A stretch of DNA of 14,407 nt, taken from a virus (taxonomy: Duplodnaviria > Heunggongvirae > Uroviricota > Caudoviricetes). Positions within the stretch are counted from its first letter, which is position 1; each line of letters begins with the position of its first letter. The translations under genes were made by a program, and so were the position numbers. The stretch lies in IMG/VR virus record IMGVR_UViG_2778261641_000006, positions 1-14,407 of that record; one strand, given 5' to 3'. Below, in pieces: positions 516 through 14,407 of the stretch. Under the pieces are notes generated by a model. The model was not told the DNA's origin. It did no database searches and saw only the letters and a list, made by a program, of their open reading frames with translations.

Positions 516-585
516 TTAAATTTAGTAGTGTTAAAAATTTAATCCTTAACCGGAGGGATTTCTGCACCCTCAGAACATCAGGAGG

Positions 586-601: not shown

Positions 602-608
602 TAATGAA

Positions 609-791: not shown

Positions 792-960
792 TTTTGGTTC
801 AACTAAATACAACGTCAGTTTTGAAGAATGGCATGAACTGTTAATGGACTATGCAGAGTTACGTGGTGGAAGTGCTGCTGATGCTGAAGCCTGGCGTGAT
901 GACTACGAAGCAGGAAAAACACCTGTCGAAGCATATTGTGATGAGTGGGGCGATGAATGA
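784..960 (+). CDS. Small acidic hypothetical protein (58 aa; below the ORF-track length cutoff)
   Basis: Translated by hand: ATG 784 to TGA 958-960, MADFGSTKYNVSFEEWHELLMDYAELRGGSAADAEAWRDDYEAGKTPVEAYCDEWGDE. GAGGAAG lies 7-8 nt upstream. The start overlaps the previous stop, and the stop overlaps the next ATG (ATGA at 957-960). Confidence 0.4.
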   Translation: MADFGSTKYNVSFEEWHELLMDYAELRGGSAADAEAWRDDYEAGKTPVEAYCDEWGDE

Positions 961-1472
961 GCGAGATTAATTATCAGGAAGGGCATGAAACGGTAGGGCA
1001 GGCAAAACCAGTTGCATGGCGATATCGCTATGTGAAAAAAAGCGTTACGGACTTTCAGGAGAAGATGTGGGTTGGTGACTGGAAATATGTACCGACAAAA
1101 GAGGATTGCAACGACAGGCCGAGCTATGAGATTCAGGCCTTATTCACTGCCCCGCCAGTCCCGGTGACATCAGAAGGACTGGTTAAAGCCGTGCGCTTTT
1201 ATGAACAGGTAAAGCGTGAAAATCCGCCAGCCGAAACAGGATCATGGAAAGATGCTGTTGATTGGGTACTCAAAGAGGCCTGCTGTGCTGCCATTCTGGG
1301 TAAAGCTGACAATCCACTAGCATCCAGTAATCAGGTTAGCGAATTAACAATGTGGGTTAAACGACTGGTCAGTCAACTGAAAAAAGCTCAGCCGGACTGC
1401 AAATTACCGGAGAAGGCGATGGATTACCTGAAACGAAATGGACTGATAAGCGTGGAGGATGTTTTAAGATGA
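957..1472 (+). CDS. Hypothetical phage protein (171 aa)
   Basis: ORF track; coupled to the flanking genes through ATGA overlaps at both ends. No motif I recognise. Confidence 0.55.
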   Translation: MSEINYQEGHETVGQAKPVAWRYRYVKKSVTDFQEKMWVGDWKYVPTKEDCNDRPSYEIQALFTAPPVPVTSEGLVKAVRFYEQVKRENPPAETGSWKDAVDWVLKEACCAAILGKADNPLASSNQVSELTMWVKRLVSQLKKAQPDCKLPEKAMDYLKRNGLISVEDVLR

Positions 1473-1552
1473 CCTGGTCTGAAGCATTCACAACGGTAGG
1501 AATCGCACTGGCGGTGGCGCTGGTGGTGTATTCGATTTGCCGCTGGGGATAA
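1469..1552 (+). CDS. Putative 27-aa hydrophobic peptide (MTWSEAFTTVGIALAVALVVYSICRWG)
   Basis: Hand-translated. ATG 1469 overlaps the TGA of the previous gene (ATGA). Single predicted transmembrane segment. Very short, so it could be spurious. Confidence 0.25.
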   Translation: MTWSEAFTTVGIALAVALVVYSICRWG

Positions 1553-1558
1553 AAACGG

Positions 1559-1586
1559 TTTGCGGGAAAAGGAGAGTTAAGTAGAA
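1559..1586 (+). promoter_or_regulatory. Candidate sigma70 promoter for the hok mRNA (TTGCGG -16 nt- TAGAAT)
   Basis: Hexamers read directly. A start near 1593 and the terminator-like hairpin at 1990-2007 would give a transcript of about 415 nt, which fits known hok mRNAs of roughly 400 nt. Confidence 0.3.
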
Positions 1587-1763
1587 TTGCAGCGGGTGCT
1601 TGAGGCTATCTGTCTCAGGCATGAACACCAAAAGGCAGATAGAGAAAAGCCCCAGTTAACATTACGCGTCCGGCAAGACGCTTAACATTAATCTGAGGCT
1701 CAATCTATGAACGGCAAATCTAGGTTAGCCTCTTACGTGCCGAAAGGCAAGGAGAAGCAGGCT

Positions 1764-1919
1764 ATGAAGCAGCAAAAGGCGATGTTAGTCGCCCTGATCG
1801 TCATCTGTATTACCGTCATTGTGACGGCACTGGTAACGAGGAAAGACCTCTGCGAGGTACGAATCCGAACCGGCCAGACGGAGGTCGCTGTCTTCACAGC
1901 TTACGAACCTGAGGAGTAA
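1764..1919 (+). CDS. hokD: Hok/Gef-family type I toxin (small membrane toxin, 51 aa)
   Basis: MKQQKAMLVALIVICITVIVTALVTRKDLCEVRIRTGQTEVAVFTAYEPEE is near-identical to my recollection of E. coli HokD (RelF) and close to HokC (Gef). GGAG lies 8 nt upstream of ATG 1764. The in-frame upstream ATG at 1707 gives the 70-aa ORF in the track, possibly a mok-like leader reading frame. Confidence 0.85.
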   Translation: MKQQKAMLVALIVICITVIVTALVTRKDLCEVRIRTGQTEVAVFTAYEPEE

Positions 1920-1926
1920 GAGACCT

Positions 1927-1948
1927 GGCGGGGGAGAAATCCCTCGCC
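1927..1948 (+). promoter_or_regulatory. 8-bp GC-rich hairpin just 3' of hok (GGCGGGGG-AGAAAT-CCCTCGCC), possibly an mRNA folding or stability element
   Basis: Inverted repeat read directly, with one G-U pair. No U-tract follows. Hok mRNAs are known to carry 3' fold-back elements, but the assignment here is inference. Confidence 0.3.
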
Positions 1949-1989
1949 ACCTCTGATGTGTCAGGCATCCTCAACGCACCCGCACTTAA

Positions 1990-2007
1990 CCCGCTTCGGC
2001 GTTTTTT
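1990..2007 (+). terminator. Weak rho-independent terminator (CGC-UUCG-GCG then T6) at the end of the hok transcript
   Basis: 3-bp stem with a UUCG tetraloop followed by TTTTTT. It shares the 13-mer ACCCGCTTCGGCG with the stronger terminator at 2655-2679. Confidence 0.4.
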
Positions 2008-2062
2008 CCGTTGATTAACTCTAGTTATTAGAGAACCGAACTTTTATTGATGGGGCAGGGAG

Positions 2063-2455
2063 ATGAAGAAACTTGTTTTAGTCGCAGGTGTAATGATTGC
2101 AACAGTAATGTTGGGAGGGTGTGCAGCAAAGGTCGATCCAGCGTTGAAAGCAGAAGCAATGAAGCCACTAACATGTAATGATGAAAAGCAATGTGACTTT
2201 TATTGGAAACGAGCGCAATTCTGGTTGGCTAATAATTCCTCATGGAAAATTCAAACGGCGACAGACACGCTAATTTCCACTTATAATCCCTCTCCAAATA
2301 GTCCATTCCTCGCTTATCAAGTGAGTAAAATGCCAAATGAAGATGGATCCTCAAGAATTTTCATCAAGCCTTTTTGCGATAATATGTTTGGCTGTCAACC
2401 AAACCCCTATCAGGCAGTTGTTTCCTTTAAAAACTTCGTTAAAACAGGGCAGTAG
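2063..2455 (+). CDS. Putative lipoprotein (moron), 130 aa
   Basis: N-terminal signal peptide with lipobox LGGC (Cys20); four more Cys in the mature part; AGGGAG as RBS. Not Bor by sequence comparison from memory. Flanked by terminator-like hairpins on both sides. Confidence 0.7.
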   Translation: MKKLVLVAGVMIATVMLGGCAAKVDPALKAEAMKPLTCNDEKQCDFYWKRAQFWLANNSSWKIQTATDTLISTYNPSPNSPFLAYQVSKMPNEDGSSRIFIKPFCDNMFGCQPNPYQAVVSFKNFVKTGQ

Positions 2456-2654
2456 TGTATAGCTTGGACGATAAATTATTAGTGAAAACGCCGTAAACCC
2501 TCACCCAATGTGGACTAAGTCTATCAAACATGACTGTGATGATTAGTCCGTAGTTGTTGCCTATGAAATCTGGATTGAGTCAGGGTTTAATCCAATAATT
2601 ATTCTATCGTTCCTTTACAAGTCCGGTATATTACTTTCAGTTTGTTTTAGCATA

Positions 2655-2679
2655 CCCGCTTCGGCGGGTTTTGTTTTTT
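2655..2679 (+). terminator. Rho-independent terminator (CCCGC-TTCG-GCGGG then TTTTGTTTTTT)
   Basis: 5-bp GC stem, UUCG tetraloop and a long T-tract, read directly. Confidence 0.6.
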
Positions 2680-2751
2680 CCTGGCATTCTGGTTTACAAT
2701 TCGCACGCCAGCCTGAACAACTGGCACCTGCTGCGCCAGCAGAGACAACCG

Positions 2752-3030
2752 ATGGCGCACGATACCAAATTACACAATTCTGATGATTCTGCCGTCTTTG
2801 CCAGCAGGCACGGGCGGCGTTCCCGCACTTTCAAATCTGACTGGTTCCAGCATGACCCATGTACTGAAGAACAGGCCGAATGGCTAATTCATAACTATCG
2901 CAGACGCGGATACGAGATTAAGAAAGCCCTCAGCCTCGATTATCGTCACTGGATAATCTATGTCAGGCTCCCTTATTCCGAACGCCCACCGCGCCCATCC
3001 CGCACATACCAGCAACGGATCTGGAGGTAA
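2752..3030 (+). CDS. Small basic hypothetical protein (92 aa), in the position Rem occupies in Qin
   Basis: The ORF-track entry begins at a TTG (2671) inside the terminator T-tract; the first ATG is at 2752. Stop TAA at 3028-3030 sits just before the GTG start of the next gene. Weak RBS. Confidence 0.4.
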   Translation: MAHDTKLHNSDDSAVFASRHGRRSRTFKSDWFQHDPCTEEQAEWLIHNYRRRGYEIKKALSLDYRHWIIYVRLPYSERPPRPSRTYQQRIWR

Positions 3031-3031
3031 C

Positions 3032-4090
3032 GTGCGGATATTACTTCGACCTGTTCTGGTACCGGAACTCGGGCTGGTGGTCCTTAGGCCGGGCCGTGAA
3101 TCCATGCAAGTATTTCATAACCCTCGAGTGCTGGTGGAGCCTGAACCGAAAAGCATGCGCGGTCTGCCGTCCGGAGTCGTCCCTGCCGTTCGCCAGCCGC
3201 TGGCGGAGGATAAATCATTACTGCCATTTTTCAGCGATGAGCGGGTGATTCGTGCTGCTGGCGGCGCTGGGGCACTGTCTGACTGGCTGTTGCGTCATGT
3301 CAAATCCTGCCAGTGGCCTCATGGTGACTATCATCACAGTGAAATCGTCATACATCGTTACGGTACCGGCGCGATGGTGTTGTGCTGGCACTGCGACAAC
3401 CAGTTGCGTGACCAGACATCCGAATCACTCGGGCAACTTGCTCATCAAAACCTGTCAGCATGGATGATTGACGTCATACGCCATGCAATGAATGGCACGC
3501 AGGAGCGGGAATTGTCGCTGGCTGAATTATCCTGGTGGGCGGTCTGCAATCAGGTGGCGGACGCGCTTCCGGAGGCAGTATTACGTCGTTCTCTGGGGTT
3601 ACGTGCGGAAAAAATCCGCTCCTTGTACCGCGAAAGCGACATCGTACCGGGAGAGCAGACCGCCACCAGCATACTGAAGCAGCGCACAAAAAATCTTGCG
3701 CCGTTGCCTCATGCCCACCAGCAACAGAACCCACCACAGGAAAAGACGGTGGTATGCATCACCGTTGATCCGGAGTCTCCGGCTCAGTATCTCCAGCGCC
3801 AGAAACCACAACGGGAAGAGATGCCTGTATACACGCGCTGGGTAAAAACGCAGAAATGCATGACGTGCGGTAATCAGGCAGATGATCCGCATCACATCAT
3901 TGGTCATGGACTGGGAGGGATGGGAACAAAGGCTGATGATTTGTTTGTTATTCCGCTGTGCCGTAAATGTCATAACGAACTGCACGCCGGGGTAAAAGAT
4001 TTTGAAGAAAAACACGGCAGCCAGCTGTTGTTGCTGATTCGTTTTTTAATGCACGCGAGAAATTCGGGTGTCCTGAAGTGGAAAGCATGA
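3032..4090 (+). CDS. DUF968/YdfU-like prophage protein with a C-terminal HNH-like Cys/His motif
   Basis: GTG at 3032 is in frame with the track ORF 2960..4090 and has GGAGGT 4 nt upstream. The resulting 352-aa product matches the size I recall for YdfU. C-terminal CMTCGN...HH...CRKCHNELH. Lies directly upstream of rusA, as in DLP12/Qin-type prophages. Confidence 0.65.
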   Translation: MRILLRPVLVPELGLVVLRPGRESMQVFHNPRVLVEPEPKSMRGLPSGVVPAVRQPLAEDKSLLPFFSDERVIRAAGGAGALSDWLLRHVKSCQWPHGDYHHSEIVIHRYGTGAMVLCWHCDNQLRDQTSESLGQLAHQNLSAWMIDVIRHAMNGTQERELSLAELSWWAVCNQVADALPEAVLRRSLGLRAEKIRSLYRESDIVPGEQTATSILKQRTKNLAPLPHAHQQQNPPQEKTVVCITVDPESPAQYLQRQKPQREEMPVYTRWVKTQKCMTCGNQADDPHHIIGHGLGGMGTKADDLFVIPLCRKCHNELHAGVKDFEEKHGSQLLLLIRFLMHARNSGVLKWKA

Positions 4091-4456
4091 ATGACTGAAC
4101 GCATAGAATTTGTTTTGCCTTACCCGCCGACGGTGAATACCTACTGGCGACGTCGTGGCAGCACATATTTTGTATCAAAAGCCGGCGAGCGTTATCGCCG
4201 TGATGTGGCGCTCATTGTTCGCCAGCAGCGGCTGAAATTAAACCTGCCCGGAAGGCTGGCGATAAAGGTGATTGCAGAGCCGCCGGATAAGCGCCGCCGG
4301 GACCTGGACAATATCCTGAAAGCACCACTGGATGCACTGACACATGCGGGGTTGCTTATCGACGACGAGCAGTTTGATGAAATCAATATTGTGCGCGGTC
4401 AGGTCGTTCCTGGTGGTCGGTTGGGGATAAAAATCACAGGGCTGGAGTGCGCATGA
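4091..4456 (+). CDS. rusA: RusA-family Holliday junction resolvase
   Basis: 121 aa; LPYPPTVNTYWR and RRRDLDNILKAPLDALTHAGLLIDDEQ align with E. coli RusA from memory. The start abuts the previous stop (TGAATG). Confidence 0.9.
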   Translation: MTERIEFVLPYPPTVNTYWRRRGSTYFVSKAGERYRRDVALIVRQQRLKLNLPGRLAIKVIAEPPDKRRRDLDNILKAPLDALTHAGLLIDDEQFDEINIVRGQVVPGGRLGIKITGLECA

Positions 4457-5142
4457 ATAACCAGTATTTACAGTTTGTGCGTGAACAGCTCATTATCGCC
4501 ACCGCCGATTTGAGTGGAGCAACAAAAGGTCAGCTTGAAGCCTGGCAGGAGAATGCCATGTTTGATACCGGGCGTTACAGGCGTAAAAAAATCCGGTACC
4601 GCGATGAAGTGACCGGAAAAATGATCACGCTGGATAATCCACCAATCCCGGGGAAACAATCGCTGGCAAAGAAGACGTCAATTCCTCTGGTAAGTCAGGT
4701 TGAGTTTTCGACATCATCATGGCGACGGGCGGTTCTGTCTCTTGAAGAACACCATAAAGCCTGGTTGCTGTGGTGTTACAGCGGCAGCATTTGCTGGGAA
4801 CACCAGATTGCGATAACACAGTGGGCGTGGAATGAATTTAACGCGCAATCTGGTACCAGAAAAATTGCGGAGAAAACACGGGAGCGCCTGAAAAAATTAA
4901 TCTGGCTGGCGGCACAGGATGTGAAGAGTGAGCTAGCTGGGCGTGAAACTTATGAATATCAGGAACTGGCATTACTGGCGGGAGTGACAACTAAAAACTG
5001 GTCCAAAACATTTACTGGTCACTGGGTTGCAATGAAACACATTTTCCACCGGCTGGATAGTGAGGCTTTATTGTTTGTGATGAGAACACGTTCAGAACAA
5101 AAGGCGGCATTTTCAAAGCAAAATGTTGCAAAAGTAGATTGA
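4453..5142 (+). CDS. Putative late-gene antiterminator Q (Qin QuuQ/Q82-like family)
   Basis: ATG 4453 overlaps the rusA stop (ATGA) and has GGAG 6 nt upstream; the track start at 4447 is a GTG. The function call rests on synteny (after rusA, before promoter/terminator and the lysis cassette) and size, not on recognised motifs. Confidence 0.55.
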   Translation: MNNQYLQFVREQLIIATADLSGATKGQLEAWQENAMFDTGRYRRKKIRYRDEVTGKMITLDNPPIPGKQSLAKKTSIPLVSQVEFSTSSWRRAVLSLEEHHKAWLLWCYSGSICWEHQIAITQWAWNEFNAQSGTRKIAEKTRERLKKLIWLAAQDVKSELAGRETYEYQELALLAGVTTKNWSKTFTGHWVAMKHIFHRLDSEALLFVMRTRSEQKAAFSKQNVAKVD

Positions 5143-5154
5143 AAGGCATATATT
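5126..5154 (+). promoter_or_regulatory. Candidate late promoter PR' (TTGCAA -17 nt- TATATT) overlapping the 3' end of the Q-like gene
   Basis: Hexamers and spacing read directly. A terminator follows about 50 nt downstream, the arrangement expected for a Q-modified PR'/tR' unit. Confidence 0.35.
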
Positions 5155-5207
5155 TCATGCAAATCTGATATTTTGCCGATTTTGTACGTGATGGCAAAAG
5201 CAAACAA

Positions 5208-5231
5208 AACCCGCCCACAAGCGGGTTTTTT
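5208..5231 (+). terminator. Rho-independent terminator (AACCCGC-CCACAA-GCGGGTT then T-tract); candidate tR'
   Basis: 7-bp stem with a T-tract, read directly. Confidence 0.6.
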
Positions 5232-5298
5232 GTGCCACTTATCTCGGATAGACATGGTGAATGCGCTAGTGGAGGAGATAAGGGTGATTTTTGAATGC

Positions 5299-5327
5299 TT
5301 GCAACATTGATTTCGTAACGTTATTAT
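5299..5327 (+). promoter_or_regulatory. Candidate sigma70 promoter for the tRNA cluster (TTGCAA -17 nt- TATTAT)
   Basis: Read directly. The predicted start at about 5334-5336 lies immediately 5' of the first tRNA (5337). Confidence 0.45.
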
Positions 5328-5336
5328 CCTGCGCCC

Positions 5337-5412
5337 GGCCCTTTAGCTCAGTGGTGAGAGCGAGCGACTCATAATCGCCAGGTCGCTGGTTCAAATCCAG
5401 CAAGGGCCACCA
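5337..5412 (+). tRNA. tRNA with anticodon CAT (Ile2/lysidine-type or Met; resembles E. coli ileX and prophage ileZ)
   Basis: Cloverleaf folded by hand: acceptor GGCCCTT/AAGGGCC, D-arm GCTC..GAGC, anticodon loop CTCATAA, T-loop TTCAAAT, 3' ACCA. Confidence 0.8.
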
Positions 5413-5413
5413 G

Positions 5414-5490
5414 CCGCCACTAGCTCATCAGGAAAGAGCGTCAACCCTTTAAGTTGAGTGTGCGAGGTTCGAGTCCCCGGTGGCGGTCCA
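5414..5490 (+). tRNA. Non-canonical tRNA-like gene, UUU-type (Lys-like) anticodon in a loop reading CCTTTAA (C at position 33)
   Basis: Acceptor CCGCCAC/GTGGCGG, discriminator T, CCA encoded; 9-nt D-loop; anticodon stem TCAAC/GTTGA; T-loop TTCGAGT with an A-C mismatch in the T-stem. Could be functional, a pseudo-tRNA, or mis-folded by hand. Confidence 0.45.
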
Positions 5491-5492
5491 GT

Positions 5493-5568
<76 letters not shown>

Positions 5569-5571
5569 TAT

Positions 5572-5646
<75 letters not shown>

Positions 5647-5652
5647 GTTAGA

Positions 5653-5698
5653 GTCTTTCAGTCTGCGATGATGGGAAATCCCGGAGTGACTGAAAGAC
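5653..5698. repeat. Perfect 11-bp inverted repeat (GTCTTTCAGTC / GACTGAAAGAC) with an inner GGG-AAAT-CCC mini-hairpin, just 3' of tRNA-Gly
   Basis: Read directly; 24-nt spacer. Possible RNA processing or structural element. Confidence 0.5.
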
Positions 5699-5705
5699 GT
5701 TTAAG

Positions 5706-5778
5706 TTATGAATGATCGCCTTTTTTTGCAAAATTGCTGTGCAGAAATACTAACCTTCGAGCAGGCGATCATTCATAA
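5706..5778. repeat. Perfect 15-bp inverted repeat (TTATGAATGATCGCC / GGCGATCATTCATAA) around a 43-nt spacer that holds a promoter-like TTGCAA -16 nt- TACTAA
   Basis: Read directly. The left arm is followed by T7. The embedded -35/-10-like hexamers are at 5726-5731 and 5748-5753. Confidence 0.5.
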
Positions 5779-5854
5779 GCACTCTGCTTTTATTCCGATT
5801 AACTGTGGGTGGTTTGTTGGATAGAGTGCTTTCCTTTCTGTATATATCGTTTCG

Positions 5855-5878
5855 CCCGCTTTTGCGGGTTTTTCTTTT
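5855..5878 (+). terminator. Rho-independent terminator (CCCGC-TTTT-GCGGG then TTTTTCTTTT) upstream of the lysis cassette
   Basis: Read directly; lies about 60 nt upstream of the holin start. Confidence 0.6.
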
Positions 5879-5938
5879 CAAATCCCTTTCATTTCTCAGT
5901 GTAAAACTACGCCATCCGTTATTTGCGGAGGTGAGGCT

Positions 5939-6154
5939 ATGAAATCCATGGACAAAATTTCAACGGGCATTGCCTACGGCACCTCCGCAGGCAGTGCTGG
6001 CTACTGGTTTTTACAGTGGCTTGATCAGGTCAGTCCTTCACAGTGGGCTGCGATTGGTGTACTGGGGAGTCTGGTTCTGGGCTTCCTGACTTATCTGACA
6101 AATCTGTACTTCAAAATCAGAGAAGACAAGCGTAAGGCTGCACGGGGAGAGTAA
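5939..6154 (+). CDS. S: Class II pinholin, phage 21 S21-type, with dual-start motif (antiholin from M1, holin from M4)
   Basis: [71 protein letters not shown] matches my recollection of S21 (S2171/S2168) and Qin EssQ. RBS GGAGGTGAGG. Confidence 0.85.
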
Positions 6155-6158
6155 TTCA

Positions 6159-6473
6159 ATGACTCAAAACTATGAACTGATTGTGAAAGGGATCCGCAAT
6201 TTTGAGAATAAAGTTACGGTAACTTTAGCGTTACGGGACAAAAAACGCTTTGACGGTGAAATTTTTGACCTGGACATCTCGCTGGACCGTGTTGAAGGTG
6301 CCGCGCTGGAGTTTTATGAAGCAGCAGCCAGAAGGAGCATCAGACAGGTCTTCCTGGATGTTGCTGCCGGGTTATGTGAAGGGGACGAGCTGTTGCCAGA
6401 AACGCGCCCCTGTTCAGAGGCGCGGTATACCATAAAAATTAACAGTTCTGATAACTCGATTACAGGTTGTTAG
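6159..6473 (+). CDS. Hypothetical protein between holin and endolysin (YdfR/DUF1327-like by position and size)
   Basis: 104-aa ORF in the same slot as ydfR (103 aa) between essQ and rrrQ in Qin. The family assignment is from synteny and memory, not motifs. Confidence 0.55.
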   Translation: MTQNYELIVKGIRNFENKVTVTLALRDKKRFDGEIFDLDISLDRVEGAALEFYEAAARRSIRQVFLDVAAGLCEGDELLPETRPCSEARYTIKINSSDNSITGC

Positions 6474-6528
6474 CTTTTTGCAGTTGGCTTTCCAGTATCT
6501 TTCATTGGTAGCATCCTGATAAATATCC

Positions 6529-7062
6529 ATGAGCGCAAAAATCAAATACGGCCTGTCAGCTGCTGTTCTGGCGCTGATTGCTGCAGGCGCGTCTGCTCCT
6601 CAAATACTTGACCAGTTTCTGGATGAAAAAGAGGGTAACCACACTACGGCATACCGCGATGGTTCCGGCATATGGACCATCTGCCGCGGTGCAACGATGG
6701 TGGATGGTAAGCCAGTCGTACCAGGAATGAAACTGTCGAAGGAAAAATGCGCTCAGGTTAATGCCATTGAGCGTGATAAGGCGCTGGCATGGGTGGAGCG
6801 CAATATAAAAGTTCCACTGACCGAGCCACAGAAAGCCGGTATCGCATCATTCTGTCCCTATAACATTGGCCCCGGTAAGTGTTTCCCGTCGACGTTTTAT
6901 AAGCGGCTGAATGCCGGTGATCGTAAGGGCGCATGCGAGGCGATTCGCTGGTGGATAAAAGATGGTGGGCGCGATTGCCGCATACGTTCAAATAACTGCT
7001 ATGGACAGGTTATTCGTCGTGACCAGGAAAGCGCATTAGCCTGTTGGGGGATAGATCAGTGA
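6529..7062 (+). CDS. R: SAR endolysin (T4-lysozyme-like muramidase, GH24; RrrQ/R21-type)
   Basis: 177 aa. N-terminal signal-anchor-release segment ([20 protein letters not shown]), then an E...D...T catalytic arrangement (EKEGN / YRDGSG / WTICRG). Pairs functionally with a pinholin. Confidence 0.85.
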
Positions 7063-7523
7063 GCAGAGTCGCCGCGATTATTTATGCTCTGGTTATTTGC
7101 ATCATCGTCTGCCTGTTGTGGGCGGTCAATCATTACCGTGATAACGCCATCGCCTACAAAGAACAGCGTGATAAAAAAGTCAGTGAGCTGAAGCAGGCGA
7201 TCGCCACCATCGCTGACATGCAGCAGCGTCAGCGTGATGTTGCTGCGCTCGATGCAAAGTACTCGAGAGAATTAGCCAATGCGAAAGCTGAAAATGAAAC
7301 TCTGCGCGCTGATGTTGCCGCTGGTCGTCGTCGGTTGCACATCAAAGCAGTCTGTCAGTCAGTGCGTGAAGCCACCACCGCCTCCGGCGTGGATAATGCA
7401 ACCAGCCCCCGACTGGCAGACACCGCTGAACGGGATTATTTCACCCTCAGAGAGCGGCTGATGACGATGCAGATGCAACTGGAAGGGGCACAGGAGTATA
7501 TCCGCACTCAGTGCATTAAGTAG
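7059..7523 (+). CDS. Rz: Rz (i-spanin)
   Basis: From GTG 7059 the product [31 protein letters not shown]... is very close to lambda Rz from memory. GGGGGA lies about 9 nt upstream. The track start at 7044 is a TTG. Confidence 0.85.
7279..7461 (+). CDS. Rz1: Rz1 (o-spanin lipoprotein), embedded in the +1 frame of Rz
   Basis: [42 protein letters not shown]... has the lipobox VVGC and proline-rich region, near-identical to lambda Rz1 from memory. Confidence 0.85.
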
Positions 7524-7565
7524 CCTTTTTATCGTGGTAAACATTTCGCAGGGTATGAGGTATTT

Positions 7566-7916
7566 ATGCCATCACGAATCCCACGCGCCTGCCGTAAGCG
7601 TGGATGTGCAGGTACAACCACAGACAGTTCTGGTTACTGCGATAAACATCGTGGCGAAGGATGGGTACAGCATCAACGCGGACTGAGCCGCCACCAGCGT
7701 GGCTATGGCTCGAAATGGGATGCCATACGTGCGCGCATACTGAAGCGTGATAATCATCTGTGTCAGAACTGCCTGCGCAATGGGAGAGCCGTTGAAGCTA
7801 GAACTGTGGACCACATCATTCCGAAAGCTCATGGTGGCACGGATGCAGACAGTAACCTGCAGAGTCTGTGCTGGCCCTGTCATAAAGCAAAAACAGCGCG
7901 CGAACGCATCAATTGA
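7566..7916 (+). CDS. HNH endonuclease, terminase-associated (HK97 gp74-like)
   Basis: N-terminal Cys cluster and C-terminal HNH motif (DHIIPKAHGG...NLQSLCWPCHKAK). Sits directly upstream of the small terminase, as in HK97-like phages. Confidence 0.85.
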   Translation: MPSRIPRACRKRGCAGTTTDSSGYCDKHRGEGWVQHQRGLSRHQRGYGSKWDAIRARILKRDNHLCQNCLRNGRAVEARTVDHIIPKAHGGTDADSNLQSLCWPCHKAKTARERIN

Positions 7917-8063
7917 TAACAGTTCCCATCTGTAGGGGAGGGGCGGGTCAAATCTCTGCAACCCTGGCTGCTCAGTACCGCCGCCTGACCCTTCCTCACA
8001 TCGCCGCAGGTTCGAAAACTTTTTTTTGGAATGTGATTGAATGATTGATAGGTAAAACCGATT
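7917..8063. other. Candidate cos/packaging-signal region between the HNH gene and terS
   Basis: Position only: in HK97 the cohesive-end site lies between the HNH gene and terS. Contains an imperfect inverted repeat (GGGCGGGTCA ... TGACCCTTCC) and a T8 run. The exact cos site is not identified. Confidence 0.25.
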
Positions 8064-8546
8064 ATGTCAGGACCCCCGAAAACCCCGCCACGCCTGCATT
8101 TGATACGAGGCAACCCCTCAAAGCGCCCCGTTAAAGACCCCAAAAAAACCGCTAAAAAGGATGAAAAAGGTCTCCCTAAAATTCCGCAACATTTAGGGGC
8201 ACAGGGGAAGTACTGGTTCAGGCGAATGGCGGAAGAGCTGAATGCGGAAGGGATCATTTCTCAGCTTGATGCGCGTGCACTCGAGTTGCTGGTGGAAGCC
8301 TACACCGAATATCGGCATCACTGCGAAACACTGGATGTTGAGGGGTATACCTACCGCACGGAAACGCAGAGCGGTGATGTACTGATTAAGGCGCACCCCG
8401 CGGCGGCAATGAAAGCGGATGCCTGGAAGCGGATCCGGGCAATGCTTGCAGAGTTTGGTATGTCACCGGCAAGCCGGGCTAAAGTAAATATCGCCGGACC
8501 GGATGATGTTGATCCGCTGGCGGAGCTTTTAAAAGCGAGAGACTGA
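8064..8546 (+). CDS. Terminase small subunit (P27/HK97-type)
   Basis: 160 aa with a basic N-terminus; position and size fit TerS. Stop overlaps the terL start (TGATG). Confidence 0.8.
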   Translation: MSGPPKTPPRLHLIRGNPSKRPVKDPKKTAKKDEKGLPKIPQHLGAQGKYWFRRMAEELNAEGIISQLDARALELLVEAYTEYRHHCETLDVEGYTYRTETQSGDVLIKAHPAAAMKADAWKRIRAMLAEFGMSPASRAKVNIAGPDDVDPLAELLKARD

Positions 8547-10303
8547 TGGCAAAAGTGGCTGACGGGATCCGCTACGCCGAACGTGTTGTTGCAGGAGAAA
8601 TTGTTGCTGGCGAATTTGTCCGCCTGGCCTGCCAGCGTTTTCTTGATGATCTGAAGTTCGGCGAAGAGCGGGGGATTTATTTCAGTGAACCCCGTGCGCA
8701 GCACATCCTGAATTTCTACAAATTTGTACCTCATGTAAAAGGGGCGCTAGCAGGCCAGCCCATTGACTTGATGGACTGGCATGTATTTATCCTCATTAAT
8801 ATTTTTGGTTTTGTCATTCCGCTGGTCAATGAAGAGACCGGGGAAGTTGTCATGCGCAGCGATGGCAGCGGACGTCCGGTGATGGTGCGCCGGTTCCGGA
8901 CGGCGTACAACGAAGTCGCCCGTAAAAACGCAAAATCAACTCTGTCATCGGGTATCGGCCTGTATATGACGGGGGCAGATGGTGAAGGCGGAGCTGAGGT
9001 GTATTCAGCCGCAACCACGCGTGACCAGGCCAGAATCGTGTTTGAAGACGCCAAAAATATGGTAAGAAAAGCCCGGTCGACACTCGGGCGGTTGTTTGAT
9101 TTCAACAAGCTGGCGATTTACCAGGAGCAGAGCGCATCAAAATTTGAACCGCTTTCTTCGGATGCAAACAACCTGGATGGTCTGAACATCCACTGCGCCA
9201 TTATTGATGAGCTGCATGCACATAAAACACGTGACGTGTGGGACGTTCTGGAAACGGCAACCGGTGCCCGTCTGCAGTCCCTTTTATTTGGTATCACCAC
9301 GGCAGGGTTTAACAAGGAAGGGATTTGTTACGAGCAGCGTGATTACGCCATCAAGGTATTGCGTGGCTATAACAGCGACGTGGAGGGCGCGGTAAAAGAC
9401 GACTCCTACTTTGCGATTATTTACACCCTCGATGAGGGAGATGATCCGTTTGATGAAACGGTCTGGCAGAAAGCGAATCCCGGCCTGGGCATCTGTAAAC
9501 GCTGGGATGATCTGCGTCGCCTGGCGAAAAAAGCGAAAGAACAGGTCTCTGCGCGGGTGAATTTTTTTACCAAACACATGAATGTGTGGGTAACAGCAGA
9601 GTCTGCCTGGATGGACATGATTAAGTGGGAGAAGTGCGAATACATTGCCCCACGACATGAGCTGAAAACGTATCCCATGTGGGTCGGCGTTGACCTTGCT
9701 CATAAGATTGATATCTGTGCGGCGGCAAAACTCTGGCGAACGGATAACGGGCATGTTCATGCCGATTTTAAATTCTGGCTTCCGGAAGGACGGCTGGAAC
9801 GATGCTCGCGGCAGCAGGCAGAACTTTACCGGAAGTGGGCGGAGATGGATAAGCTGATTCTGACGGATGGTGATGTTATCGATCATGCTCAGATAAAAAG
9901 TGACTTACTGGAATGGATTGGTGGTGAAAACCTCAGGGAACTGGGATTTGACCCGTGGAGCGCGATGCAGTTCAGCCTGGCACTGGCTGAAGAAGGGATA
10001 CCGCTGGTGGAGGTTCCGCAGACGGTTCGCAATCTGTCAGAGGCCATGAAGGAAACGGAATCACTGGTCTATGCCGGGCGTTTCCATCACAGCAATCATC
10101 CGGTCATGAACTGGATGATGTCTAACGTTACGGTAAAACCGGACAAAAACGACAATATCTTCCCGAATAAATCCACGCTGGAAGCCAAAATCGACGGCCC
10201 TGTTGCGATGTTTACAGCAATGAGCCGGATGCTGGTCAATGGTGGTGAACCGGAGCTGGATCTGTCTGAACATCTGGTCAGCGTGGGCATCCGCTCGCTT
10301 TAA
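8546..10303 (+). CDS. Terminase large subunit (HK97 Terminase_1 family)
   Basis: 585 aa. An N-terminal ATPase region with a Walker A-like GADGEGG segment and a Walker B-like IIDE segment, followed by a C-terminal nuclease region; typical length and position. Confidence 0.9.
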
Positions 10304-10314
10304 CCGAGGTCATT

Positions 10315-10497
10315 ATGTTTCTGATAATTCTCGCGCCACTGGTGGGCGTGCTGGGTGCGCTTTTGCTGGCGTATGGTGCCTGGCTGATTTATCCCCCGGC
10401 GGGTTTTGTTGTTGCCGGGGTGCTGTGCCTGTTCTGGTCGTGGCTGGTGGCGCGATATCTCGACCGTACACAGCCGTCTGTCGGCGGAGGTAAATAG
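10315..10497 (+). CDS. Small predicted 2-TM membrane protein (60 aa) inserted between terL and portal
   Basis: ORF track. GAGG 5 nt upstream of ATG. Two hydrophobic segments. Its stop overlaps the portal GTG. Canonical HK97-type modules have no gene here. Confidence 0.45.
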
Positions 10498-11738
10498 TGT
10501 TCTTTTCGGGATTATTTCAACGAAAAAGTGACGCACCGGTGACCACGCCAGCAGAGCTGGCGGATGCTATCGGGTTGTCCTACGACACCTATACCGGAAA
10601 GCAGATCAGCAGCCAGCGGGCCATGCGACTGACGGCGGTTTTTTCCTGTGTCAGGGTGCTGGCGGAGTCGGTCGGGATGTTGCCCTGCAACCTGTATCAC
10701 CTGAACGGCAGCCTGAAGCAGAGAGCCACTGGCGAACGTCTGCATAAGCTGATCTCCACGCATCCCAATGGCTATATGACGCCGCAGGAGTTCTGGGAGC
10801 TGGTGGTCACCTGTCTGTGCCTGCGGGGAAACTTTTACGCCTACAAAGTGAAAGCATTTGGCGAAGTGGCTGAACTGCTGCCCGTCGATCCCGGCTGTGT
10901 GGTACCGAAGCTTAACAGTAGCTGGGAGCCGGTCTATCAGGTCACATTCCCGGATGGCTCCACGGATGTACTGAGCCAGGAGGATATCTGGCATGTGCGC
11001 ACGCTGACGCTGGACGGACTGGTGGGGCTGAATCCCATCGCCTATGCCCGCGAGGCAATATCGCTGGCGGCAGCGACCGAAGAGCACGGGGCCAGACTGT
11101 TCAGCAATGGCGCGGTGACGTCGGGTGTGTTGCGTACAGAGCAGACGCTGTCAGATCAGGCTTATGAGCGCCTGAAGAAAGATTTTGAGGAGCGTCACAC
11201 CGGGCTTGGCAATGCTCACCGCCCGATGATCCTTGAGATGGGGCTGGACTGGAAGTCGATGGCGCTGAACGCCGAGGACAGCCAGTTCCTGGAAACCCGC
11301 AAGTTTCAGCTTGAAGAAATCTGTCGTCTGTTCCGGGTGCCGTTGCACATGGTGCAGAACACCGATCGCGCCACCTTCAACAATATCGAAGAGCTGGGGC
11401 TGGGATTTATCAACTATTCACTGGTGCCGTATCTGACCCGCATCGAACAGCGGATCAACACCGGACTGGTACGAAAAAGTAAGCAGGGCGTTTATTACGC
11501 CAAATTTAATGCCGGGGCGTTACTGCGCGGGGATATGAAGTCCCGTTTTGAAGCCTACGCCACCGGGATCAACTGGGGAATTTACTCTCCCAATGACTGC
11601 CGCGACCTGGAAGATATGAATCCGCGTCCCGGTGGTGATGTCTATCTCACACCGATGAACATGACCACGAAACCCTCCGATGGCAGTAAAGCCGGTAAGC
11701 AGAAGGATAACGCCAATGCAGACGAAACAACGTCTTGA
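10497..11738 (+). CDS. Portal protein (HK97 family)
   Basis: 413 aa; position after terL and composition fit portal. GTG start at 10497 with GGCGGAGG upstream. Confidence 0.85.
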   Translation: MFFSGLFQRKSDAPVTTPAELADAIGLSYDTYTGKQISSQRAMRLTAVFSCVRVLAESVGMLPCNLYHLNGSLKQRATGERLHKLISTHPNGYMTPQEFWELVVTCLCLRGNFYAYKVKAFGEVAELLPVDPGCVVPKLNSSWEPVYQVTFPDGSTDVLSQEDIWHVRTLTLDGLVGLNPIAYAREAISLAAATEEHGARLFSNGAVTSGVLRTEQTLSDQAYERLKKDFEERHTGLGNAHRPMILEMGLDWKSMALNAEDSQFLETRKFQLEEICRLFRVPLHMVQNTDRATFNNIEELGLGFINYSLVPYLTRIEQRINTGLVRKSKQGVYYAKFNAGALLRGDMKSRFEAYATGINWGIYSPNDCRDLEDMNPRPGGDVYLTPMNMTTKPSDGSKAGKQKDNANADETTS

Positions 11739-12366
11739 TGTACCGCTGAGTCTGAAATCTGTCAGTGACTCCGGTGAGTTTGAAGGGTATGGCTCCGTCT
11801 TTGGTGTAAAGGACAGCCACGATGATGTGGTGATGTCCGGGGCATTTGCTGCTTCCCTGCGGGCGTGGAGTGACAGAAAAGCGTTACCTGCGCTGCTCTG
11901 GCAGCACCGCATGGATGAACCCATCGGTGTTTACACCGAAATGAAGGAAGACGATGTCGGGCTTTACGTCAGGGGACGGTTGCTTATTGATGATGATCCC
12001 CTCGCAAAACGCGCACATGCACACATGAAGGCCGGTTCGTTAACCGGCCTTTCTATTGGGTACGTCCTGAAGGACTGGGAATACGACCGGAGCAAAGAAG
12101 CCTTTCTGCTGAAAGAAATCGACCTCTGGGAAGTCAGCCTGGTGACGTTCCCGTCTAACGACGAGGCGCGGATCAGCGACGTCAAGAACGCACTGGCCCG
12201 CGGGGAAATCCCCGAACAGAAAAAAATCGAAAGAGTCCTGCGTGATGTCGGACTCTCCCGTACCCAGGCCAAAGCATTCATGGCCGGGGGCTATGGCGCA
12301 CTGTCCCTGCGCGACGCTGAGGATGTGGGCTCTGCACTGAATGCACTGAAAAATCTGAACTTCTAA
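11716..12366 (+). CDS. Prohead maturation protease (HK97 gp4-like, S78 family)
   Basis: ATG 11716 has AAGGA 8 nt upstream; the in-frame ATG at 11680 is an alternative. Size and position between portal and capsid fit the HK97 protease. Confidence 0.85.
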   Translation: MQTKQRLDVPLSLKSVSDSGEFEGYGSVFGVKDSHDDVVMSGAFAASLRAWSDRKALPALLWQHRMDEPIGVYTEMKEDDVGLYVRGRLLIDDDPLAKRAHAHMKAGSLTGLSIGYVLKDWEYDRSKEAFLLKEIDLWEVSLVTFPSNDEARISDVKNALARGEIPEQKKIERVLRDVGLSRTQAKAFMAGGYGALSLRDAEDVGSALNALKNLNF

Positions 12367-12380
12367 TCAGGAGAAATACG

Positions 12381-13586
12381 ATGGCGGTTGATATTAAAGA
12401 TGTCGAACAGGTCGCGCAGGAGCTGCAGCAGAAGTTTGACGACTTCAAAGCAAAGAACGACAAGCGCGTGGATGCGATTGAGCAGGAAAAAGGCAAACTT
12501 GCCGGGCAGGTGGAAACCCTGAACGGGAAACTCAGCGAGCTGGAAAACCTCAAAAGCGATCTTGAAAAAGAGCTGCTTGAGCTGAAACGTCCGGCAGGTG
12601 GTGCGCAAAATAAACTGGCCACCGAGCATAAAGAAGCGTTTGTGGGCTTCCTGCGTAAAGGCCGTGAAGATGGTCTGCGCGATCTGGAGCGCAAGGCATT
12701 ACAGGTGGGCACCGATGAAGACGGCGGCTATGCCGTGCCGGAAGCACTGGATCGCAACATTCTCACCCTGCTGAAAGATGAAGTGGTGATGCGCCAGGAA
12801 GCCACGGTGATCAGCGTTGGTGGTTCCGACTACAAAAAACTGGTGAATCTGGGCGGCACGGCTTCCGGATGGGTTGGCGAGACTGACGCGCGCTCCCAGA
12901 CTGCCACCTCAAAACTGGGCCTGATTGAACCTTTCATGGGGGAAATCTACGGTAACCCGCAGGCCACCCAGAAAATGCTGGATGATGCCTTTTTCAACGT
13001 GGAAGCATGGATCAACAGCGAGCTGGCAACCGAATTTGCCGAACAGGAAGAAATTGCCTTTACCACCGGCGATGGTACCAAGAAGCCGAAAGGGTTCCTG
13101 GCGTATGAGTCCACGGATGAAACAGACAAGGTCCGGGCGTTCGGCAAACTTCAGCATATTGTATCCGGCGAAGCGACGGCGGTGACCGCAGATGCCATTA
13201 TCAAACTGATTTACACGCTGCGTAAGGCACACCGCACTGGCGCGAAGTTCATGATGAACAACAACAGTCTGTTTGCCATCCGTCTGCTGAAAGACAGTGA
13301 GGGTAACTATCTGTGGCGTCCGGGGCTGGAGCTGGGGCAGCCGTCCTCTCTGGCGGGTTACGCTATCGCTGAAAACGAACAGATGCCGGATATTGCCGCT
13401 GATGCGAAAGCCATTGCATTTGGTAACTTCAAACGGGGTTACACCATCGTTGACCGTATCGGTACCCGCATTCTGCGTGACCCGTACACCAATAAACCGT
13501 TTGTCGGTTTTTATACCACCAAGCGCACCGGCGGCATGCTGGTCGATTCGCAGGCCATCAAACTGCTGAAGATTGCAGCGGCGTAA
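12381..13586 (+). CDS. Major capsid protein, HK97 fold, with N-terminal coiled-coil delta (scaffolding) domain
   Basis: 401 aa. The first 100 or so residues are a K/E/L-rich coiled coil, followed by a conserved capsid body. RBS AGGAGA. Confidence 0.9.
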   Translation: MAVDIKDVEQVAQELQQKFDDFKAKNDKRVDAIEQEKGKLAGQVETLNGKLSELENLKSDLEKELLELKRPAGGAQNKLATEHKEAFVGFLRKGREDGLRDLERKALQVGTDEDGGYAVPEALDRNILTLLKDEVVMRQEATVISVGGSDYKKLVNLGGTASGWVGETDARSQTATSKLGLIEPFMGEIYGNPQATQKMLDDAFFNVEAWINSELATEFAEQEEIAFTTGDGTKKPKGFLAYESTDETDKVRAFGKLQHIVSGEATAVTADAIIKLIYTLRKAHRTGAKFMMNNNSLFAIRLLKDSEGNYLWRPGLELGQPSSLAGYAIAENEQMPDIAADAKAIAFGNFKRGYTIVDRIGTRILRDPYTNKPFVGFYTTKRTGGMLVDSQAIKLLKIAAA

Positions 13587-13593
13587 TCATTCA

Positions 13594-13622
13594 GGGGGCG
13601 CAGAAGTGCGCCCCCTGTTCTG
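13594..13622 (+). terminator. 9-bp GC hairpin (GGGGGCGCA-GAAG-TGCGCCCCC) after the capsid gene, with a weak T-tract; partial terminator or mRNA stabiliser
   Basis: Read directly. The downstream TGTTCTG is U-poor, so termination is probably leaky. Confidence 0.45.
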
Positions 13623-13637
13623 ACAGGTGAAAGAATC

Positions 13638-13826
13638 ATGATCCTGAAACAAGATCTGAAATGGTCACCGGACGGTATGCGTGTTGAGATTATTCGGGCC
13701 GGTGAGTATGAAGATAAAGAATTACCCAAACGGGTACGCGAAATTGCCACTGCAGCTGGGATTGTCTCTGATAAGAGAACACCTGTTGCGCGGGGGGCTG
13801 ATAAGTCTAAAAAACAGCATTCATAG
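13638..13826 (+). CDS. Small hypothetical protein (62 aa) between capsid and head-tail connector
   Basis: ORF track; AGGTGA upstream; charged and hydrophilic. No recognisable motif. Confidence 0.35.
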   Translation: MILKQDLKWSPDGMRVEIIRAGEYEDKELPKRVREIATAAGIVSDKRTPVARGADKSKKQHS

Positions 13827-13837
13827 AGGTTGCCCAA

Positions 13838-14143
13838 ATGATGCCCACTCTGGAAGAGCTTCGTGTTCAGTGCCGGATTGATGATGACAATGAACAGGAG
13901 AATTCTCTTCTTATGATGTATCTGGCTGCTGCCAGGGAAGAGGCTGAAAAGTTTTTAAACCGGACGCTTTACGATGAAACTGTTTCTGAGCAGGATACGA
14001 CCGGGATTGTAATAACACCTCTGATAAAACTGCGTCTTATGCAACTGGTTGGCTACTGGTACGAGAACAGGGAAATGCAGGATGCAGTGCCTGATTTTTT
14101 CTATACCGGACTGCGGATGTATCGATTTCATCCCGGAACATAG
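13838..14143 (+). CDS. Head-tail connector (gp6-like, DNA-packaging/head-completion family)
   Basis: The N-terminus MMPTLEELRVQCRIDDDNEQENSLLMMYLAAAREEAE follows the typical gp6-like connector pattern, and it sits directly after the capsid gene. Confidence 0.7.
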   Translation: MMPTLEELRVQCRIDDDNEQENSLLMMYLAAAREEAEKFLNRTLYDETVSEQDTTGIVITPLIKLRLMQLVGYWYENREMQDAVPDFFYTGLRMYRFHPGT

Positions 14144-14151
14144 GAGGATTC

Positions 14152-14329
14152 ATGCAGGCAGGAAGATTACGTGATCGTGTGGTTATTCTGAATGCCACCA
14201 CCGTTCGGTCTCCGTCAGGGCACCCTGTGGAAACAATGACGGAGGGGGCAACCATATGGGCAGAAGTTAAGGGGATCAGTGGCAGGGAGAGAATATCCGG
14301 AGGCGCAGAAACTGCTCAGGCTACAGTGA
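14152..14329 (+). pseudogene. Head-closure/head-tail adaptor gene, truncated after about 59 codons by an IS insertion
   Basis: MQAGRLRDRVVILNATTV...WAEVKGISGRE matches the N-terminus of head-tail joining proteins, which are usually about 110 aa. The track ORF continues into the IS end and stops at 14346. Confidence 0.6.
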
Positions 14330-14407
14330 GTAGACTGGCCCCCTGAATCTCCAGACAACCAATATCACTTAAATAAGTGATAGTCTTAATACTAGTTTTT
14401 AGACTAG
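14330..14407 (+). mobile_element. Left end of insertion sequence IS2 (IS3 family), partial; runs off the right edge
   Basis: TAGACTGGCCCCCTGAATCTCCAGACAACCAATATCACTTAAATAAGTGATAGTCTTAATACTAGTTTTTAGACTAG matches my recollection of the IS2 terminal inverted repeat and leader upstream of insC. Identified from memory only. Confidence 0.6.

What the first reader, a model, noticed from the sequence alone, without database searches (positions are those of the whole stretch)
14152..14407. IS2 insertion truncating the head-closure gene: the prophage is probably defective
The head-tail adaptor ORF keeps native-looking sequence for about 59 codons, then reads into TAGACTGGCCCCCTGAATCTCCAGACAACCAATATCACTTAAATAAGTGATAG, which I recognise as the IS2 left terminal repeat and leader. 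The element continues past the window edge. A disrupted head-completion gene would block infectious particle formation while leaving the lysis genes, hok, tRNAs and morons intact, the typical state of a domesticated cryptic prophage. The rest of the element and its target-site duplication lie outside the window.
Basis: partly seen in the sequence, partly recalled or inferred. Interest (0 to 1): 0.5.

Follow-up and report, generated by a model that had tools for sequence, protein, structure and literature searches.

The report
IS2 insertion in prophage head-closure gene
A common E. coli jumping gene (IS2) has landed in the middle of a prophage gene needed to seal the DNA-filled head and attach the tail. 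This probably cripples the prophage, and it is an ordinary, well-understood kind of event.

Summary
ORF 14152-14346 matches a 112-aa phage head-closure ("stopper", Pfam PF05521) protein for 59 codons plus 2 nt. At 14330|14331 the sequence switches to the left end of IS2: 14331-14407 equals nt 1-77 of the 1331-bp K-12 IS2 copy, 77 of 77. The reading frame stops 16 nt into IS2, giving a 64-aa product.

The window is a complete draft-assembly contig (NLVW01000057.1, GCA_002513175.1). It therefore ends inside IS2 because short-read assemblers break at multi-copy repeats. The rest of IS2, its right end, the expected 5-bp duplication (GTGAG) and the 3' half of the gene could not be found with the available tools.

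All 23 other genes in the window are full length compared with an intact relative, and the surviving 59 codons carry no amino-acid change. This looks like a recent single hit, not a decayed "domesticated" prophage. Loss of the stopper should block infectious particle formation, by analogy with SPP1 gp16, but that was not tested here.

Independent IS2-group insertions in the same gene occur in other strains, yet roughly 900 complete E. coli genomes carry the gene mostly intact.

Verdict: real, ordinary, already known in kind. Interest is low.

The parts
13838..14143 (+). Head-tail connector (adaptor) gene, 101 aa, intact. It lies immediately upstream of the disrupted gene.
   Evidence: Pfam PF05135 Phage_connect_1, 45.6 bits against a cut-off of 21.2. 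99% identical over the full length to WP_000983037.1.
14152..14330 (+). Native 5' part of the head-closure (stopper, PF05521) gene: 59 codons plus 2 nt of a 339-nt gene.
   Evidence: 100% amino-acid identity to residues 1-59 of the intact 112-aa protein. Homology to intact prophages ends exactly at 14330.
14152..14346 (+). Truncated ORF as it now reads: 64 aa, made of 59 native residues plus S-R-L-A-P encoded across the junction and in IS2, with stop TGA at 14344-14346.
   Evidence: Translation. The Pfam PF05521 hit covers only profile positions 1-59 of 106.
14326..14330 (.). GTGAG, the 5 bp next to the IS2 left end. This is the predicted target-site duplication if the event was a simple transposition.
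   Evidence: Inference from the 5-bp repeats flanking IS2 in K-12 (CCTTG) and in strain HCP5S3_I2 (ATGTC). The second copy is not in the window and was not found.
14331..14372 (+). IS2 left inverted repeat (IRL, 42 bp), TAGACTGGCCCCCTGAATCTCCAGACAACCAATATCACTTAA.
   Evidence: Identical to the K-12 IS2 end. The 42-bp IRL length is taken from PMC3299598.
14331..14407 (+). IS2 nt 1-77 (IRL plus the leader upstream of orfA). The transposase orientation is the same as the phage late operon. The orfA start (IS2 nt 92) would lie 15 nt beyond the contig end.
   Evidence: 77/77 identity to K-12 IS2. The annotated transposase CDS starts at IS2 nt 92. The contig ends here.

Best explanation
Shown: a copy of IS2 (IS3 family) is joined by its left end to nt 179 of the head-closure gene of a lambdoid prophage with an HK97-type head module. 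IS2 is 1331 bp and moves by a copy-out/paste-in route through a minicircle.

Shown: the head-closure gene encodes the gp16-like 'stopper'. The insertion cuts the 112-aa protein to 59 native residues plus 5 foreign ones, which removes about half of the Pfam PF05521 profile (positions 60-106 are no longer covered).

Inferred: this is a simple transposition. If so, the rest of IS2, a GTGAG duplication and the 3' 160 nt of the gene follow in the genome.

Shown and inferred: the sequence stops 77 nt into IS2 only because the window is a whole short-read contig. Assemblers cannot extend through a multi-copy element, and 77 nt is about one typical assembly k-mer.

Inferred from SPP1 gp16: without the stopper, packaged DNA is not retained and tails cannot dock. 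On induction the prophage would then still lyse the cell but would not yield infectious particles, unless a related co-resident prophage supplies the protein.

Inferred: IS2 also carries Rho-dependent terminators, so it could be polar on the downstream head-tail joining and tail genes. Q-antiterminated late transcription may read through them.
For: - IS2 identity: 77/77 to the K-12 IS2 left end. That element has defined boundaries, a 5-bp TSD and an annotated IS2 transposase.
- Break point: defined exactly against the empty site.
- Gene identity: PF05521 scores 52 bits for the truncated product and 75.5 bits for the intact relative, against a cut-off of 25. The intact relative matches PDB 2KZ4 'putative head-tail adaptor' at E = 1.7e-30. 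The gene order connector, head closure, HK97-gp10-like, gp17 holds in intact relatives.
- The intact gene belongs to working phages: it is 100% and 98% identical in the phage records vB_EcoM-606R7 and phi467.
- Contig-end explanation: the window equals the whole contig NLVW01000057.1.
- Second assembly: a Logan assembly of SRR3957065 is identical over 6936 nt and stops 30 nt into IS2, which fits an assembly k-mer of about 31 (inference).
- Precedent: IS2 sits in the same gene 45 nt further on, in the same orientation, with a clean 5-bp TSD (ATGTC) and an intact downstream module, in complete genomes NZ_CM149870 and NZ_CM149862.
- Stopper function: PMC9701221.
- IS2 ends and mechanism: PMC3299598.
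- Rho-dependent terminators in IS2: PMC3737525.
Against: - The right junction, the TSD and the 3' gene fragment of this genome were not found. No called protein carries IS2-right-end residues fused to the C-terminal half.
- There is no exact DNA match for either junction in the species-representative genomes.
- No complete E. coli genome has this junction. A simple insertion therefore remains an inference.
- Defectiveness was not tested. E. coli strains often carry several related prophages that could complement the defect.
- The two assemblies with the junction may derive from the same isolate or the same reads, so they are not independent biological replicates.
Confidence: 0.8

Rival explanations
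1. The junction is real, but it marks an IS2-mediated rearrangement rather than a simple insertion. This could be a deletion, an inversion, or recombination between two IS2 copies. The 3' half of the gene, and perhaps the tail module, would then be absent or elsewhere in the genome.
For: Only the left junction is visible, and the contig ends in the repeat. The predicted right-junction ORF and DNA pattern were not found in any searched collection. IS2 is multi-copy in most E. coli genomes, with a median of 3 and up to 41 places, which gives substrates for recombination.
Against: The searches could not reach the other contigs of this assembly, so finding nothing has little weight. In the one comparable case with complete sequence, IS2 in this gene is a simple insertion with a TSD and intact downstream genes.
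Confidence: 0.12
2. The junction is an assembly artefact (a chimeric contig end), or it is present only in a subpopulation of the sequenced culture. The chromosome of most cells would then carry an intact gene.
For: The IS2 part is only 77 nt, about one k-mer, at the very end of a draft contig. Nine other assemblies have contigs ending at gene nt 177-179 without IS sequence, so this position is a frequent assembly-graph branch point.
Against: A second assembly with a different method (Logan, SRR3957065) gives the same junction with 0 mismatches over 6936 nt. The junction falls exactly at the first base of the IS2 IRL, as real transposition requires. A random chimera would not respect the element boundary. 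In a mixed population the assemblers would have ended the contig at 14330, not run into IS2.
Confidence: 0.04
3. One reading: the element is a long-domesticated cryptic prophage kept for its morons, hok and tRNAs, and the IS2 hit is one symptom of old decay.
For: Cargo such as a hokD-like gene and four tRNAs is present and intact.
Against: Every other gene in the 14.3 kb is full length compared with an intact relative. That includes Q, the lysis cassette, HNH, the small and large terminase subunits, portal, protease, capsid and connector. The capsid and protease are 100% identical at the amino-acid level. The surviving 59 codons have no amino-acid change, and the region is 99.7% identical at the nucleotide level to many intact prophages. 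The same cargo is carried by intact relatives, so it is not a sign of domestication.
Confidence: 0.05

Closest known systems
IS2 of Escherichia coli K-12 (IS3 family, IS2 group; insC/insD, also called orfA/orfAB)
   Same: The 77 nt present are identical to nt 1-77 of the K-12 copy. They cover the 42-bp IRL and the leader up to 15 nt before orfA. The junction lies exactly at the IRL tip.
   Different: Nothing differs in what can be seen. The other 1254 nt, the IRR and the TSD are not in the window.
IS2 insertion in the same head-closure gene in pig E. coli strains HCP5S3_I2 / LCP30S3_I5 (NZ_CM149870, NZ_CM149862)
   Same: Same gene, same IS, same orientation. There the event is a simple insertion with a 5-bp TSD (ATGTC), and the downstream HK97-gp10-like and gp17 genes are retained.
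   Different: It is an independent event 45 nt further downstream (gene nt 224 against 179). That IS2 copy has a 1-nt deletion in the IRL tip (TAGCTGG against TAGACTGG) and a few substitutions.
SPP1 gp16 / lambda gpFII / Shigella SF1141-type head-completion 'stopper' proteins (Pfam PF05521)
   Same: The intact relative matches PF05521 over the full length and matches PDB 2KZ4. The gene sits between the gp6/gp15-like connector gene and the tail-completion genes. The expected role is to close the portal channel and to provide the tail-docking face (PMC9701221).
   Different: The window copy keeps only profile positions 1-59 of 106. The function of this particular E. coli protein has not been tested, and the link between 2KZ4 and SF1141 is from my own memory, not checked here.
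IS-disrupted prophages of E. coli, for example the IS-riddled lambdoid prophages of O157:H7 Sakai and K-12 (general knowledge, not tested here)
   Same: A single IS insertion inactivates a virion gene while regulation and lysis genes stay intact.
   Different: Here only one lesion is visible and the rest of the module is pristine. The state of the remainder of the prophage is unknown.

Membership tests
IS2 (IS3 family) | Terminal left inverted repeat (42 bp, TAGACTGG...) identical or near-identical to the reference IS2 | tested here: met
   77/77 identity to the K-12 IS2 left end. The K-12 element boundary was fixed by its 5-bp TSD. 7326 records match.
IS2 (IS3 family) | Element of about 1331 bp encoding orfA and orfB, joined by a programmed -1 frameshift into a DDE transposase | not testable with these tools
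   The contig ends at IS2 nt 77, and orfA would start at nt 92.
IS2 (IS3 family) | Right inverted repeat (41 bp, ...GGGGCAAATCCA) and a 5-bp target-site duplication | not testable with these tools
   The predicted duplication is GTGAG. The pattern GGGGCAAATCCAGTGAGGGTCTGGATGAG gave 0 hits in genome contigs. No fusion protein was on record.
Phage head completion / stopper protein (Pfam PF05521, SPP1 gp16-like) | Sequence match to PF05521 above the gathering score | tested here: met
   The truncated ORF scores 52.2 bits and the intact relative 75.5 bits, against a cut-off of 25. PDB 2KZ4 matches at E = 1.7e-30.
Phage head completion / stopper protein (Pfam PF05521, SPP1 gp16-like) | Complete domain of about 106 positions | tested here: not met
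   Only profile positions 1-59 of 106 are present. The C-terminal 53 residues are replaced by 5 IS2-encoded residues and a stop.
Phage head completion / stopper protein (Pfam PF05521, SPP1 gp16-like) | Position in the head-tail joining module, after the connector/adaptor gene and before the tail-completion genes | tested here: met
   A PF05135 connector gene lies directly upstream in the window. In intact relatives it is followed by the HK97-gp10-like and gp17 genes.
Defective / cryptic (domesticated) prophage | Several inactivating lesions or large deletions of essential phage modules | tested here: not met
   Within the window, 23 of 24 genes are full length compared with the intact prophage of strain 3CM. 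The rest of the prophage lies outside the window.
Defective / cryptic (domesticated) prophage | Failure to produce infectious particles on induction | not testable with these tools
   This needs an induction and plaque assay. It is expected from loss of the stopper (PMC9701221) but is not shown.

The most novel reading that the evidence does not exclude
The central stretch of this head-closure gene (about nt 175-225) may be a preferred landing site for IS2-group (IS3-family) elements. Three independent insertions fall within about 46 bp in different strains.
- IS2 at nt 179 in this window.
- A different IS2-like element in the opposite orientation at about nt 195-209 in E. coli O119 CP043821, flanked by an unusual 15-bp repeat.
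- IS2 at nt 224 in two pig strains.

IS2 has been suggested to prefer intrinsically curved targets (PMC3299598).

Against this reading, roughly 900 complete genomes carry the gene region, and in the 60 records sampled across the ranking it was uninterrupted. Prophage genes also simply tolerate insertions.
Probability: 0.12. Interest if true: 0.25.

Novelty: already known. Interest (0 to 1): 0.08.

Why it matters
It matters little beyond annotating this genome. The head-closure gene should be flagged as a pseudogene interrupted by IS2. The prophage should be scored as probably unable to form infectious particles, although it may still kill its host on induction because Q and the lysis cassette are intact.

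There is a practical lesson for the scan. A window that ends a few tens of bases into a multi-copy IS is the signature of a draft-contig boundary. What lies beyond it, whether a simple insertion or a rearrangement, cannot be read from the window.

Tried and rejected
1. Looking for the right junction of this same genome.
- I predicted the fusion ORF MSGNIGANPVRVWMRF... (an ATG in the IS2 IRR read into the 3' half of the gene) and searched the 5.8-billion-protein set.
- I looked up three exact candidate sequences.
- I read the other C-terminal fragments in the cluster.
- None carries IS2-derived residues. Contig L006 and the contigs holding the 50-aa fragment P0027 come from other samples and other break points.

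2. Exact DNA scans of the species-representative genomes for the right junction and the left junction.

3. Asking whether the same insertion is widespread. Nine contigs from other assemblies and metagenomes end at gene nt 177-179. None contains IS sequence. Natural variants differ at exactly nt 179 and 180 (GTGAG-G, GTGAA-G and GTGAG-A). I therefore read these ends as assembly-graph branch points, not as evidence for IS2.

4. The insertion hot-spot idea. A spread sample of 900 complete genomes with the region showed it uninterrupted in the records sampled. I kept the idea only as a low-probability novel case.

5. Assembly chimera. I rejected this because the break respects the exact IS2 tip and because a second assembly reproduces it.

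6. I used the annotated K-12 IS2 with its TSD-defined boundaries instead.

Full report
**What is in the sequence**

The last 256 nt of the window hold an ORF starting at ATG 14152, preceded by AGGAGG. It runs to TGA 14344-14346 and encodes 64 aa. Its first 59 residues are identical to residues 1-59 of a 112-aa protein that NCBI annotates as 'phage head closure protein' (WP_001147820.1) in intact prophages of many E. coli strains.

Nucleotide homology to those prophages runs through the whole window and stops at exactly 14330. The uninterrupted gene in E. coli SMS-3-5 reads ...GCTACAGTGAG|GGTCTGGATGAG.... The window reads ...GCTACAGTGAG|TAGACTGGCCCCCTGAATC.... The break therefore lies between 14330 and 14331, after nt 179 of a 339-nt gene.

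**What the foreign sequence is**

The 78-nt query 14330-14407 matches at 100% in thousands of places: 4739 of 5426 complete E. coli genomes, median 3 copies, E = 3e-32. I took one copy in K-12 MG1655 and read it through.
- It is 1331 bp and begins TAGACTGG.
- It ends GGGGCAAATCCA.
- It is flanked by a 5-bp direct repeat (CCTTG).
- It encodes a frameshifted protein annotated 'IS3-like element IS2 family transposase', starting at element nt 92.

Window 14331-14407 equals nt 1-77 of that element, 77 of 77. The transposase would read in the same direction as the phage late genes.

**Why the sequence stops there**

An exact-protein look-up of the 64-aa product shows that the window is the complete contig NLVW01000057.1 (14,407 nt) of the draft assembly GCA_002513175.1. 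A second assembly of a public read set, Logan SRR3957065, gives a contig identical to window 7425-14360 with no mismatch. That contig stops 30 nt into IS2.

Ending 77 nt and 30 nt into a multi-copy element is what de Bruijn assemblers with k-mers of about those sizes do at a repeat. That is my inference from how such assemblers work. So 'the element continues past the window edge' is a reasonable expectation, not an observation. What follows IS2 in this genome is unknown.

**What the disrupted gene is**

The truncated product still scores 52.2 bits on Pfam PF05521 (phage head completion protein, cut-off 25), but only over profile positions 1-59 of 106. The intact relative scores 75.5 bits over positions 1-105. 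It also matches the solved structure 2KZ4, 'putative head-tail adaptor', at E = 1.7e-30.

The gene lies directly after a PF05135 gp6-like connector gene (13838-14143). In intact relatives it lies before the HK97-gp10-like and gp17 tail-completion genes. The same gene is 100% and 98% identical in the phage records vB_EcoM-606R7 and phi467, so it belongs to working virions.

The best-studied member of this class is SPP1 gp16. [quoted passage not shown] Losing the C-terminal half of the protein should abolish this. That conclusion is an inference by homology.

**Is the prophage 'defective' or 'domesticated'?**

I translated the 24 annotated genes of the matching part of an intact relative (strain 3CM) and compared them with the window. 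Every gene except the head-closure gene is present at full length, at 89-100% amino-acid identity. That set includes the hokD-like gene, DUF968, RusA, Q, holin, lysozyme, the lysis protein, HNH, the small and large terminase subunits, portal, protease, major capsid and connector. The capsid and protease are 100% identical. Only a YdfR-like gene differs, at its C-terminus.

The surviving 59 codons carry no amino-acid change. The window therefore shows one fresh lesion in an otherwise pristine module, not the decay expected of a long-domesticated cryptic prophage.

The prophage is probably unable to make infectious particles on its own, but three reservations apply.
- The remainder of the prophage is unseen.
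- A co-resident related prophage could supply the stopper.
- Nothing was tested experimentally.

IS2 also contains Rho-dependent terminators (PMC3737525), which could reduce expression of the downstream tail genes. Q-modified polymerase may ignore them. That last point is established lambdoid biology applied here by inference.

**Simple insertion or rearrangement?**

I tried to find the other side. If IS2 inserted in the normal way, the right junction should read ...GGGGCAAATCCA-GTGAG-GGTCTGGATGAG. It would create an ORF starting at an ATG inside the IS2 right end (MSGNIGANPVRVWMRF...).
- No such protein exists in the 5.8-billion-protein collection.
- Neither junction occurs in the species-representative genome set.
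- No complete E. coli genome has this junction.

These negatives are weak, because the other contigs of this assembly could not be queried.

The best positive argument is precedent. In two complete pig-strain genomes IS2 sits in the same gene 45 nt further on, in the same orientation. It has a clean 5-bp duplication (ATGTC), and the downstream genes are in place. I put a simple insertion at about 0.8, an IS2-bounded rearrangement at about 0.12, and an artefact or subpopulation at about 0.04.

**Side observations on recurrence**

E. coli O119 CP043821 carries a different IS2-like element in the opposite orientation, about 20 nt downstream of the present site. It is flanked by a 15-bp repeat.

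Many partial versions of this protein exist in draft assemblies. Nine contigs from other samples end at gene nt 177-179. Those ends carry no IS sequence and coincide with natural single-base variants at nt 179 and 180. They are most simply assembly-graph branch points.

Across 900 complete genomes that carry the region, it was uninterrupted in the records sampled. A true IS2 hot spot is possible but unproven, and it would be of modest interest.

**Comparison with what is known, and verdict**

IS insertions in prophage structural genes are commonplace in E. coli. IS2, its ends and its mechanism are well characterised (PMC3299598), and so is the stopper protein class. Nothing here departs from those descriptions.

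The finding is real and correctly recognised, and its mechanistic consequence is plausible. The 'domesticated' gloss is not supported, and the key missing piece, the right end, lies outside the data. Novelty: already known. Interest: about 0.08.

Noticed in passing
window 1-14407: The window is an entire draft contig (NLVW01000057.1 of GCA_002513175.1). A Logan contig of SRR3957065 is identical to window 7425-14360. Both stop inside IS2, at 77 nt and 30 nt, which fits assembler k-mer overhangs.
   Followed up: yes
window 5337-5646: Four tandem tRNA genes lie between the Q antiterminator gene (4453-5139) and the holin gene (5939-6154). They are CAT (called Met by ARAGORN, annotated tRNA-Ile in a relative), Lys-TTT, Thr-TGT and Gly-TCC.
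   Followed up: partly
window 1764-1916: A hokD-like type I toxin gene (51 aa, 96% identical to the HokD annotated in strain 3CM) is intact. The same gene is present in intact relatives, so it is not a marker of domestication.
   Followed up: partly
window 6159-6473: The YdfR/DUF1327-family gene after the holin is 104 aa here against 116 aa in strain 3CM, and it aligns only over residues 1-84. It has a variable C-terminus and is the only other length difference among the 24 genes.
   Followed up: no
window 7566-8546: An HNH endonuclease gene lies directly upstream of a P27-family small terminase gene, with the large terminase following at 8546-10303.
   Followed up: no
L001 3552-5225 (NZ_CM149870.1, also NZ_CM149862.1): An independent IS2 insertion in the same head-closure gene at gene nt 224, in the same orientation, with a 5-bp duplication ATGTC. 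This IS2 copy has a 1-nt deletion at the IRL tip (TAGCTGG). An IS4 element also lies just downstream of gp17.
   Followed up: yes
L007 4464-6153 (CP043821.1, E. coli O119): A different IS2-group element, with ends TGTTCTTGCCCCC... and ...GGGGGCCAGCTCA, is inserted in the opposite orientation in the same gene. It is flanked by a 15-bp direct repeat (GTCTGGATGAGATTC), which is unusually long for the IS3 family (3-5 bp is typical).
   Followed up: partly
L016-L024 contig ends (gene nt 177-179, equivalent to window 14328-14330): Nine contigs from unrelated isolate assemblies, metagenomes and Logan runs end within 2 nt of the same position, without any IS sequence. Natural variants differ at nt 179 and 180, so this is probably a recurrent assembly-graph branch point or mosaic boundary.
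   Followed up: partly
window 1-14330 compared with H36/H37 (NZ_OY754421, NZ_OY754377): The closest complete-genome relatives span about 15.4 kb for the same 14.33 kb of the window, so they carry about 1 kb more somewhere in the region. I did not locate the difference. Other relatives, such as strain 3CM, are almost the same length as the window over this region.
   Followed up: no
H11 (NZ_OZ464527.1 2042967-2044530): In this sheep strain an IS2 left end lies about 750 nt downstream of the present site, within the HK97-gp10-like / gp17 region of the same module. I did not examine it further.
   Followed up: no
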